A stretch of 64,000 nucleotides of DNA from Octopus vulgaris (taxonomy: Eukaryota): assembly GCA_951406725.2 (NCBI GenBank), contig OX597835.1, positions 7,936,001 through 8,000,000 of the forward strand, in the 5' to 3' direction. Below the pieces are notes generated by a model, which worked only from the letters and a program-made list of their open reading frames with translations, did not search any database and was not told the origin of the DNA. Position numbers and translations under genes: made by a program. Positions 10,027-47,089 of the stretch are shown piece after piece; positions within the stretch are counted from its first letter, which is position 1, and each line of letters opens with the position of its first letter.

Positions 10027-10174
10027 TGTACATGTATATATAACTATACAATATATCCGTATTCATTGTGGCTTACCTGATTTGAAATTTCTCCATTCCA
10101 TTTATTGTAATGTAAAAATTTTTCAGGTGCTCGACTTGCGCACTTCTAAACGGTCTGTATCTTTCGTAAGAAAA

Positions 10175-10694
10175 TTACAATTACTAAACGAATTCAAGGC
10201 ATGGCTGCTCTCGATTATTGGGATCGCCTTAAAGCCTTGAAACTTTACTCCCTCCAGCGTCGCCGTGAGCGGTACATCATTTGTACGATGTGGAGAATAT
10301 ACCGCCAACTTTGCCCAAACGACCTTAACATTAGCTTCAAGGTTCATCCAAGACTGGGACCACGGGCCATACGTACCCTGCCCAATTCAAGATCACAACA
10401 TACAGGTACACTGCAACATAATTTCTTTTCCTCAACAGGCCCTGCCCTATTTAACATTGTCCCGAGGGAGATCAAAGAGGAAAAGGATCCCATCAACTTT
10501 AAACGGAGTCTGGATAGATTCCTTCAAAGAATACCAGATAAGCCACCCATAATTGGATACAACTCACCCAACAAGAACTCACTAGTTGAACAAAACTTGA
10601 CTTAAACAGGATTCGAGTAATCCTATCAGGTGGTGCTATTAAGTTAGACATGGCCTGGACCAATCTTTGGTCGAAACATATCTAAGTTTATCTA

Positions 10695-45970: not shown

Positions 45971-47089
45971 TCACTTCGTCTGTTCCGTGTACTGTTTATA
46001 AAGTTCGCTATTTCTTTTCATGATATCCAAACACGACCCTAACAACCGTTCAAAAGAGTCTCTTTGTAAAAATGCCACCTGTATGTCACCAACTGCGTAT
46101 ACGTTGGCTGACCGTGGTTTATTCTCTATAAGTGCCAGTTCTCCGAAATACGATCCCTTGCACAATCGACCCACCTCCTCCACTTCTCCTTCAGGGTCGT
46201 CTGGTTTATGGGAAATGGTGACCCTTATCTCACCCCTTTCCACAAAATACATACCGTCAGCTCCGTCCCCCTGCTTGATGATCTGGGTTTGGTCTGAGTA
46301 GTTTTGCGAGACCAGGGCATCGGCCAAACTCATTCTTTCGTACTGGTCGAGCGATTTCAAAATGGGTACATTTTCCAGGAATTCCTCGTACATTTTGCGT
46401 TTATTGCAGGCTCTTTTCAGAACGATTCGCCGAAATGAATTTCGGTCCATCGCCCATAACGTGCCCTCATCCGACACAGCAGTAACGGTCGCCGAACGTG
46501 GCTTGTTATACAAAAGTGCTAACTCACCGAAGCTGCCCGTATCTACGAACTGGTGGACTTTCCTGGTAGTTCCGTTAGTTTCCACAAACACATCGTAAAT
46601 TCCGCTGTCTATCACATAAAAATTATCTCCATCGTCTCCCTGGGTGATCACTTCTTCCCCAGCATTCACCTTTTTCCCGAACATCGCATCAAGAACTTCC
46701 TGCATTTGGTCGGAATCCAAAGATCGGAATATCAAAATGCCGCTAACGGCTTCTGTCAGACGCCGACGTTGTTCGTCCGTTTTCGGGTGGACGACTTTCT
46801 CATCATCGTCATCTTCTTCAGGGTCATACTTTTCGCCTGAAATAGAAATCCGACGTTCGTAACGATTCGAGATGTTCGTTTTAGGCTTCATCGATGAAGG
46901 TTCTGGTTCTCCAGCTTCGCACTCATCCACCACGATGTACATGGGGACCGTTTTAGGTTTCCGATTTTCTCGCACCCTCGTGAAATAGTCTATTGCGAAG
47001 TCGTAGATGTCAGCCGGCCTCTCTCGTAGAACTGCTACAGTGAAATCTCTCAACATATCACCAAGACCCTCCGGGATTTCAAAGCTCAT
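45971..47089 (-). CDS. PRKAR2: cAMP-dependent protein kinase type II regulatory subunit (PKA RII-like), intronless CDS, 372 aa
   Basis: N-terminal RII-type D/D domain (FEIPEGLGDMLRDFTVAVLRERPADIYDFAIDYF). Phosphorylatable inhibitor site RRIS (Ser82) marks type II. Linker HPKTDEQRRRL. Two CNB domains with PBCs FGELALLYNKPRSAT and FGELALIENKPRSAN. C-terminal capping Tyr in KRNSELY. Open from ATG to TGA with no introns; GC content higher than the flanks. Confidence 0.97.
   Translation of the reverse strand: MSFEIPEGLGDMLRDFTVAVLRERPADIYDFAIDYFTRVRENRKPKTVPMYIVVDECEAGEPEPSSMKPKTNISNRYERRISISGEKYDPEEDDDDEKVVHPKTDEQRRRLTEAVSGILIFRSLDSDQMQEVLDAMFGKKVNAGEEVITQGDDGDNFYVIDSGIYDVFVETNGTTRKVHQFVDTGSFGELALLYNKPRSATVTAVSDEGTLWAMDRNSFRRIVLKRACNKRKMYEEFLENVPILKSLDQYERMSLADALVSQNYSDQTQIIKQGDGADGMYFVERGEIRVTISHKPDDPEGEVEEVGRLCKGSYFGELALIENKPRSANVYAVGDIQVAFLQRDSFERLLGSCLDIMKRNSELYKQYTEQTK

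What the first reader, a model, noticed from the sequence alone, without database searches (positions are those of the whole stretch)
46100..46560. PKA RII subunit with PKG-like serines in both cyclic-nucleotide pockets: candidate cGMP-responsive PKA
Seen: both phosphate-binding cassettes read PRSA (NKPRSATV, Ser199, codon 46493-46495; NKPRSANV, Ser327, codon 46109-46111). Established: animal PKA R subunits typically have PRAA here. PKG has Thr/Ser at this position (RTA, RSA), whose hydroxyl binds the guanine 2-amino group, and Ala-to-Thr substitution in RI-alpha raises cGMP affinity. The second PKG determinant (the beta-5 Arg) aligns by eye to His179 in CNB-A and Gly307 in CNB-B. Inference: a dual cAMP/cGMP sensor rather than a cGMP-selective one. 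It keeps an RII docking domain and RRIS site, so it could let NO/cGMP signalling release PKA catalytic subunit at AKAP sites. The same change in both domains argues against drift.
Basis: partly seen in the sequence, partly recalled or inferred. Interest (0 to 1): 0.78.

Follow-up and report, generated by a model that had tools for sequence, protein, structure and literature searches.

The report
Ancient PKA subunit with cGMP-type pockets

Summary
Observation confirmed: single-exon 372-aa PKA RII gene (45971-47089, minus strand) with Ser199 and Ser327 after the phosphate-binding arginines; His179 and Gly307 occupy the beta-5 site. It is not a one-species oddity. Of 120 top homologues, 78 carry Ser/Thr in both pockets, 41 Ala in both and 1 is mixed. 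The Ser/Thr proteins form one clade (100/98, pocket columns and linker removed) across cephalopods, chiton, bivalves, gastropods, annelids and a nemertean. It sits beside the ordinary Ala/Ala RII, which this genome also holds as a multi-exon gene. Within the clade these serines changed to Thr 6 times and to Ala once, which suggests selection for a hydroxyl; three more CNB-A pocket residues changed with them. Published mutagenesis makes relaxed cAMP/cGMP selectivity likely, not cGMP preference: the beta-5 Arg is absent and the PKA-type caps remain. Against: the hydroxyl also aids cAMP binding (HCN2), lone Ala-to-Ser changes recur in divergent R subunits, a leech-type paralogue reverted pocket A, and no binding was measured. 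Ten literature searches found no description of this clade. Verdict: new variant of a known kind, cheaply testable.

The parts
45971..47089 (-). Single-exon CDS, 372-aa PKA type II regulatory subunit of the Ser/Thr-pocket paralogue clade
   Evidence: contigs of 4 runs agree
46961..47068 (-). RIIa dimerisation/docking domain (aa 8-43)
   Evidence: Pfam PF02197, E 5.9e-10; two helices at pLDDT about 94
46928..46957 (-). Clade-specific linker motif (aa 45-54, PK-x-VPMYIxV type); role not determined
   Evidence: Tyr/Phe51 and Val54 in 78 of 78 clade rows, absent from canonical RII; low confidence in the monomer model
46841..46855 (-). Autoinhibitory substrate site R79-R80-I81-S82-I83 (RRxS); flanking residues changed in this species only
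46553..46555 (-). His179, beta-5 base-contact position of CNB-A
   Evidence: His 61, Tyr 9, Phe 6 of 78 clade rows versus Gly in 40 of 41 Ala/Ala rows
46487..46531 (-). Phosphate-binding cassette A (aa 187-201) with Ser199 at 46493-46495
46169..46171 (-). Gly307, beta-5 position of CNB-B; no PKG-type Arg, variable in the clade
46103..46147 (-). Phosphate-binding cassette B (aa 315-329) with Ser327 at 46109-46111 and clade-typical Glu322
46046..46048 (-). Arg348, aligned with RIIbeta Arg381 (cap of pocket A; role recalled)
   Evidence: alignment; invariant in 120 of 120
45998..46000 (-). Tyr364, aligned with RIIbeta Tyr397 (cap of pocket B; role recalled)
   Evidence: alignment; 119 of 120

Best explanation
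The gene encodes a member of a second, ancient RII paralogue of molluscs, annelids and a nemertean that carries Ser or Thr in both phosphate-binding cassettes and likely works as a PKA inhibitor released by cGMP as well as cAMP. Shown: domain anatomy, clade membership, coexistence with an ordinary Ala/Ala RII, and exchange of Ser almost only with Thr at the two sites. Inferred from homology: it dimerises through the D/D domain, can dock on AKAPs, and holds the catalytic subunit through RRxS82. Inferred from PKG, HCN and RIalpha mutagenesis: the Ser199 and Ser327 hydroxyls bond the 2-amino group of syn-cGMP, and His179 with Val167 and Phe181 may add base contacts in pocket A. With no beta-5 Arg and PKA-type caps retained, cAMP would still activate. 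The expected result is a large drop in cAMP preference (my estimate: from roughly 100-fold, a recalled figure, to a few- to twenty-fold), enough for local cGMP rises to release PKA-C. The gene likely arose by retroposition of the multi-exon RII before these phyla split.
For: Bimodal motif distribution: 78 hydroxyl/hydroxyl, 41 Ala/Ala, 1 mixed of 120. Monophyly of 43 rows at 100/98 on 253 CNB-core columns with nine pocket columns and the linker removed; 98 SH-aLRT under a mixture model, quick search. Both paralogues in this genome and in Owenia, Mercenaria, Lottia and Mytilus. Changes away from Ser at the two sites: 6 to Thr, 1 to Ala; at seven other Ser-majority columns 1 of 31 to Thr (Fisher p 1.7e-5, imperfect control). 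One member uses an AGT codon where others use TCN. CNB-A pocket co-changes: Val167 78/78 vs Ile 39/41, Phe181 77/78 vs Tyr 40/41, His/aromatic 179 vs Gly. Literature: in PKG, Thr to Ala costs 27-29-fold in cGMP activation but Thr to Ser only 4-fold, and CNB-A (Thr, no Arg) prefers cGMP only 2-fold (PMC3080414); single PKG-type mutations in isolated RIalpha CNB-B abolish selectivity (PMC3765617).
Against: Nothing was measured on this protein. The hydroxyl also bonds the cyclic phosphate: HCN2 T592A weakens cAMP binding about 7-8-fold, and wild-type HCN2 with Thr still binds cAMP about 4-fold better than cGMP (PMC6785730 Table 1). The full switch in RIalpha used Thr plus beta-5 Arg, not Ser alone, and was done in RI, not RII. 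Ser/Thr at this site recurs outside the clade: 19 of 72 divergent representatives have it in at least one pocket, of which 3 are clade members, and tapeworm and mite RIIs have PRSA/PRAA. A leech-type subclade reverted pocket A to Ala and lost His. Mussel type II PKA is recalled (Bardales 2004, not held) as about 100-fold cAMP-preferring, and which RII gene it represents is unknown to me. Octopus vertical-lobe LTP showed no cGMP involvement.
Confidence: 0.5

Rival explanations
1. The hydroxyl is kept to tune cAMP binding (higher affinity or slower release through a bond to the cyclic phosphate). The paralogue is a cAMP sensor with a different set point, and any cGMP gain is physiologically unused.
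For: Thr193 OG1 bonds the phosphate oxygen in cAMP complexes of PKG too (Table 2). HCN2 T592A lowers cAMP affinity 7-8-fold and HCN2 remains cAMP-preferring. No beta-5 Arg; PKA caps Arg348 and Tyr364 retained.
Against: In the same studies the hydroxyl matters far more for cGMP: HCN2 cGMP Kd goes from 0.36/6.1 to about 180 uM on T592A, and single mutants of RIalpha CNB-B lose selectivity. Base-facing residues of pocket A changed too.
Confidence: 0.27
2. cGMP binds well but is a partial agonist or competitor, so the paralogue lets cGMP damp or sensitise cAMP-driven PKA rather than switch it on alone.
For: Binding and activation are separable in CNB domains (PMC9417419 passages on partial agonism). 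PKA-type capping residues are unchanged.
Against: RIalpha holoenzymes with PKG-type residues were activated by cGMP, not blocked.
Confidence: 0.1
3. It is cGMP-preferring: His179 stands in for the PKG beta-5 Arg in pocket A, making a PKG-like switch on the PKA catalytic subunit.
For: His or an aromatic residue at 179 in 76 of 78 clade rows; it is lost together with Ser199 in the leech-type subclade.
Against: His179 occurs with Ala in insect RII (Chrysoperla, Papilio). Position 307 is Gly/Ala/Ser and unconstrained. PKG CNB-A itself barely discriminates.
Confidence: 0.07
4. Ala-to-Ser changes were fixed neutrally soon after duplication and are now held by local packing, with no change in ligand response.
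For: Ala to Ser is a one-base change that recurs on long branches. Many other columns also separate the two paralogues. One reversion to Ala is tolerated.
Against: Ser is exchanged for the bulkier Thr six times and for Ala once, the opposite of other serines in the same proteins.
Confidence: 0.06

Closest known systems
Metazoan PKA RII (vertebrate RIIalpha/RIIbeta; canonical invertebrate RII, Mytilus Rmyt2 type)
   Same: D/D domain, RRxS site, tandem CNB-A/B, invariant Gly-Glu-x-Ala and Arg of both cassettes, Arg and Tyr caps. Best PDB matches by sequence (E 1e-109 to 1e-94) and by fold are RII.
   Different: Ser/Thr for Ala at both cassettes; Val167, His179, Phe181, Glu322; a conserved extra linker motif; C-terminal tail after the Tyr cap of median 6 versus 18 residues; single exon here versus at least nine coding exons for the paralogue on C5.
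cGMP-dependent protein kinase (PKG I CNB-A and CNB-B)
   Same: Hydroxyl residue directly after the cassette Arg (consensus PRTA, parasite PKG PRSA; PMC2246266 Table 1). PKG I CNB-A, with Thr but no beta-5 Arg, is the nearest pocket type.
   Different: No kinase domain in the ORF, RIIa D/D at the N terminus, no beta-5 Arg in either pocket, far lower similarity (E 1e-34 to 1e-32 for PKG I).
Engineered cGMP-responsive RIalpha (T192R/A212T, G316R/A336T)
   Same: Same positions, same proposed chemistry.
   Different: Natural, type II, Ser more often than Thr, and without the Arg half of the switch.
Trypanosomatid nucleoside-activated PKA-R
   Same: A natural PKA-R with altered ligand specificity (PMC10959531 passages).
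   Different: It does not respond to cAMP; here all core cyclic-phosphate contacts are invariant.

Membership tests
PKA type II regulatory subunit | N-terminal RIIa D/D domain | tested here: met
   PF02197 aa 8-43, above the curated cut-off
PKA type II regulatory subunit | RRxS autophosphorylatable inhibitor site | tested here: met
   R79-R80-I81-S82
PKA type II regulatory subunit | Two tandem CNB domains with intact cassettes and RII caps | tested here: met
PKA type II regulatory subunit | Groups with animal RII in a tree | tested here: met
   rooted on fungus-like R subunits, no named RI row in the tree
PKA type II regulatory subunit | Ala after the cassette Arg (usual cAMP-selective signature) | tested here: not met
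   Ser199 and Ser327; this is the variant feature
PKA type II regulatory subunit | Binds and inhibits PKA-C, released by cyclic nucleotide; binds AKAPs | not testable with these tools
   needs recombinant protein
PKG (cGMP-dependent protein kinase) | Kinase domain in the same chain | tested here: not met
   ORF ends at aa 372; only RIIa and cNMP families found
PKG-type cGMP-selective pocket | Thr/Ser after the cassette Arg | tested here: met
   both pockets; 78 of 79 clade hits in both
PKG-type cGMP-selective pocket | beta-5 Arg (PKG Ibeta R297 equivalent) | tested here: not met
   His179 and Gly307
PKG-type cGMP-selective pocket | Measured cGMP affinity at or above cAMP affinity | not testable with these tools
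   no binding assay; no cGMP ligand model was run
Retrogene | Loss of the parental introns | tested here: inconclusive
   Single exon here and in long genomic-type contigs versus a multi-exon paralogue. Some clade members show ORF breaks near aa 122, 178, 185, 239 and 336 that differ between lineages, read as later intron gains but not checked on DNA.

The most novel reading that the evidence does not exclude
Lophotrochozoans have kept, since before molluscs, annelids and nemerteans split, a third class of PKA regulatory subunit that is a natural cGMP-activated switch on the PKA catalytic subunit. NO/cGMP signals in Aplysia, Octopus, oysters and annelids could then reach anchored PKA directly, and some effects now assigned to PKG, or to cAMP alone, run through it.
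Probability: 0.4. Interest if true: 0.85.

Novelty: new variant of a known kind. Interest (0 to 1): 0.68.

Why it matters
The cAMP-to-PKA and cGMP-to-PKG division is a textbook rule. In what I could read, cGMP-responsive PKA appears only as engineered mutants. A natural, phylum-spanning paralogue with the PKG hydroxyl in both pockets would show evolution building the crossover and keeping it alongside the normal subunit. It is present in classic models of cyclic-nucleotide physiology: two copies are annotated in Aplysia, plus octopods, mussels and oysters. Pharmacology there that uses cGMP analogues or PKA inhibitors to separate the pathways would need re-reading. Even if the hydroxyl only retunes cAMP binding, an unrecognised RII paralogue with its own linker motif changes the inventory of PKA holoenzymes in these animals. 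One binding experiment decides it.

Tried and rejected
Expression: no RNA holder listed; three of the four runs laid are only guessed to be RNA and are contigs, so they were used to confirm the sequence, not transcription. A loose end upstream of the start codon shared by two runs looked like a spliced 5' exon, but it is absent from the window and maps to contig C1: rejected. RNA editing: no A-to-G-type difference in the CDS in 4 runs of contigs; contigs drop rare variants, so this is not evidence of absence. A Priapulus hit to the linker region (E 0.025) is a canonical Ala/Ala RII, so it does not extend the clade to ecdysozoans. Tapeworm second RIIs with PRSA/PRAA and unnamed His/Ser-in-A representatives could be distant orthologues, but the tree leaves their place open (the careful search did not finish and the quick tree is cited). 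Five long-branch rows of 84 were dropped before the bootstrap tree, and locus L020 (Asn/Ser) was left out of the tested group and falls outside it. The structure model left the linker motif unresolved and the fold search only repeated the RII assignment. No complex prediction was run: R with C is a textbook pair and cGMP is not an offered ligand. Papers not held: Lorenz 2017, Huang 2014, Kim and Sharma 2021, Altenhofen 1991, Littler 2016 and a DOI tried for Bardales 2004. Shabb 1990/1991 were seen only as reference-list titles. Three look-ups of earlier scan findings returned nothing.

Full report
Observation. The region is part of one uninterrupted ORF, 47089 to 45971 on the minus strand, 372 aa. 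No other ORF of 150 aa or more in the window resembles an ordinary gene; most are low-complexity repeats. Pfam finds the RIIa docking domain and two cNMP-binding stretches, and the six best solved-structure sequences are RIIalpha and RIIbeta. The beta-5 positions lie 20 residues before each serine, the spacing of the RIalpha mutant pairs (PMC4565163, whole text) and of C173/T193 in PKG Ibeta (PMC3080414, passages). Contigs of 4 of 4 runs laid span the CDS with one synonymous difference. The nearest named proteins are from Octopus bimaculoides (17 differences) and Argonauta (33 differences).

What it is. The 120 best of 4122 homologues split in two: 78 have Ser or Thr at both sites, 41 have Ala at both, and 1 (Helobdella) has Ala/Thr. 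Named hydroxyl-type proteins come from cephalopods, a chiton, bivalves, gastropods, annelids (Owenia, Dimorphilus, Paralvinella, Ridgeia, Lamellibrachia, Helobdella) and the nemertean Lineus. The named RIIs of insects, spiders, echinoderms, amphioxus and Priapulus in my lists are Ala/Ala. On 253 CNB-core columns, with the linker and nine pocket columns removed, the 43 hydroxyl-type rows among 79 form one branch at 100/98 (five long rows dropped from the 84, where support was 96). A 60-row mixture-model quick tree with divergent proteins added gave 98. The canonical Ala/Ala RIIs of the same phyla lie outside it. This genome holds both: the window gene and a canonical RII on contig C5 with at least nine coding exons over about 158 kb and PRAA in both cassettes, plus an RI-like gene on C6 with PRAA twice. 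Owenia, Mercenaria, Lottia and Mytilus also have both types. The duplication therefore predates the split of these phyla. No named brachiopod, phoronid or flatworm member appeared in the listed hits, so its outer limit is open.

Gene structure. The window gene has no intron. Full-length ORFs also occur on megabase-scale contigs (cluster 5) and in a 45-kb contig (L019). Some members show ORF breaks at lineage-specific places near aa 122, 178, 185, 239 and 336. Retroposition followed by scattered intron gain is the likely history; this is inference from ORF ends and was not checked on DNA.

Is the hydroxyl selected? On a tree of 80 clade proteins, parsimony gives 5 Ser-to-Thr changes and none to Ala at site 327, and one to Thr and one to Ala at site 199. 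At the seven other Ser-majority columns only 1 of 31 changes from Ser is to Thr; 12 are to Ala and 14 to Cys (Fisher p 1.7e-5). The control is imperfect because those columns sit in other structural settings. One member encodes the pocket-A serine by AGT where others use TCN. Three further positions of pocket A switch with the clade: Val167 (78 of 78 versus Ile 39 of 41), His/Tyr/Phe179 (76 of 78 versus Gly 40 of 41) and Phe181 (77 of 78 versus Tyr 40 of 41). In pocket B, Glu322 replaces Thr (65 of 78 versus 41 of 41). The Gly, Glu, Ala and Arg of both cassettes are invariant, and the residues aligned with RIIbeta Arg381 and Tyr397 (capping role recalled) are kept in 120 and 119 of 120.

Results against. 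Ser/Thr at this site is not unique to the clade. Of 80 metagenome loci, 72 gave two readable pockets: 56 Ala/Ala, 3 Ser/Ser (two clade members and one unrelated long branch), 4 Ala/Thr, 3 Asn/Ser, 1 Ala/Ser and 5 other. Of 150 representatives, 57 were longer than 520 aa and 21 could not be parsed; of the other 72, 42 were Ala/Ala, 5 had hydroxyls in both pockets, 11 in A only and 3 in B only. Four of the five doubles lie outside the clade on long branches. Tapeworm second RIIs and a mite RII read PRSA/PRAA (supplement of PMC12608923, parts 379 and 399). A leech-type subclade has reverted pocket A to Ala and lost His while keeping Thr in B, although Helobdella retains a second, Ser/Ser copy. 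Insect RII has His179 with Ala.

How it likely works. The Thr193 hydroxyl of PKG bonds the 2-amino group of syn-cGMP and a phosphate oxygen. Thr to Ala or Val raises the cGMP needed 27-29-fold, Thr to Ser only 4-fold, and isolated CNB-A, which lacks the beta-5 Arg, prefers cGMP about 2-fold. Single PKG-type mutations in isolated RIalpha CNB-B gave similar affinity for both analogues (PMC3765617, whole text). Thr plus Arg in one domain gave holoenzymes activated equally by both nucleotides, and in both domains selectively by cGMP. I recall, without having read them, that Shabb 1990 and 1991 found Ala-to-Thr alone raised cGMP affinity with little effect on cAMP. The best reading is a holoenzyme with relaxed selectivity, opened by cAMP and also by locally high cGMP (0.5). 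The main rival is retuned cAMP binding (0.27): HCN2 keeps the Thr, binds cAMP about 4-fold better, and T592A weakens cAMP binding 7-8-fold, though it weakens cGMP binding far more (PMC6785730, passages and Table 1). Partial agonism (0.1), cGMP preference (0.07) and neutrality (0.06) follow. The link to NO is inference. Octopus vertical-lobe LTP is reported NO-dependent without evidence for a cGMP cascade, while the same text cites NO/cGMP regulation of cephalopod statocysts (bioRxiv 10.1101/2024.12.25.630295, passages).

This species' copy. Where O. bimaculoides and Argonauta agree, the window protein differs at 12 sites, against 3 where O. bimaculoides is the odd one. Nine of the 12 lie in residues 53-92 and five surround the inhibitor serine, including Val83Ile and Ala85Gly at positions nearly invariant in both paralogues. 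RRxS is intact, so inhibition is probably retained, perhaps with altered affinity.

Novelty. Ten full-text searches listed no paper describing this paralogue or a natural cGMP-responsive animal PKA. Most subscription journals are outside the library. The recent metazoan PKA survey (PMC12608923; section 2.2 and passages) reports only RI and RII clades and does not mention it in what I read; its supplement is cut, so most of its R alignment was not visible. Mussel Rmyt2 is described as type II with partial peptides (PMC13425070, passages); which paralogue it is bears directly on the claim and could not be settled. Databases annotate all members simply as RII or RII-like.

Verdict. A real, deeply conserved feature; a new variant of a known kind; function predicted, not shown. 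Interest 0.68.

Noticed in passing
window 46814-46933 (aa 53-92): Burst of species-specific substitutions in the linker and around the autoinhibitory site: 9 of 12 window-specific changes, including A85G at a position that is Ala in 77 of 78 clade and 41 of 41 canonical rows; supported by contigs of 4 runs.
   Followed up: partly
window 46928-46957: Clade-specific hydrophobic linker motif between the D/D domain and the inhibitor site, nearly invariant across three phyla but unresolved in the monomer model; possibly a binding site for a partner or for the D/D groove.
   Followed up: partly
P0075, P0206, P0283, L012, L016, L019, L064: A leech-type subclade has Ala back in pocket A with Thr in pocket B, a natural half-revertant useful as a control; Helobdella keeps a second Ser/Ser copy, P0214.
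   Followed up: partly
P0052/P0258, P0019/P0062, P0020/P0037, P0085/P0261: Gastropods carry two copies of the hydroxyl-type paralogue (Lottia, Patella, Haliotis, Aplysia); the two Lottia proteins list the same longest-contig length, which may mean linkage.
   Followed up: no
L020-L022: Another intronless RII-like ORF with Asn in cassette A, Ser in cassette B and a pseudosubstrate-like RRRAV site; outside the clade.
   Followed up: no
L069, P0334: An unrelated pair of R-like proteins with Ser in both cassettes, an independent origin of the same signature.
   Followed up: no
window 10150-10605: Short ORF resembling the C-terminal part of a LINE-type retroelement protein (resemblance by eye, not searched).
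   Followed up: no
L094 (G000:C5:123498802-123499107) and L096 (G000:C3:132487158-132487448): Exons of other CNB-domain proteins in this genome with RTA-type cassettes.
   Followed up: no
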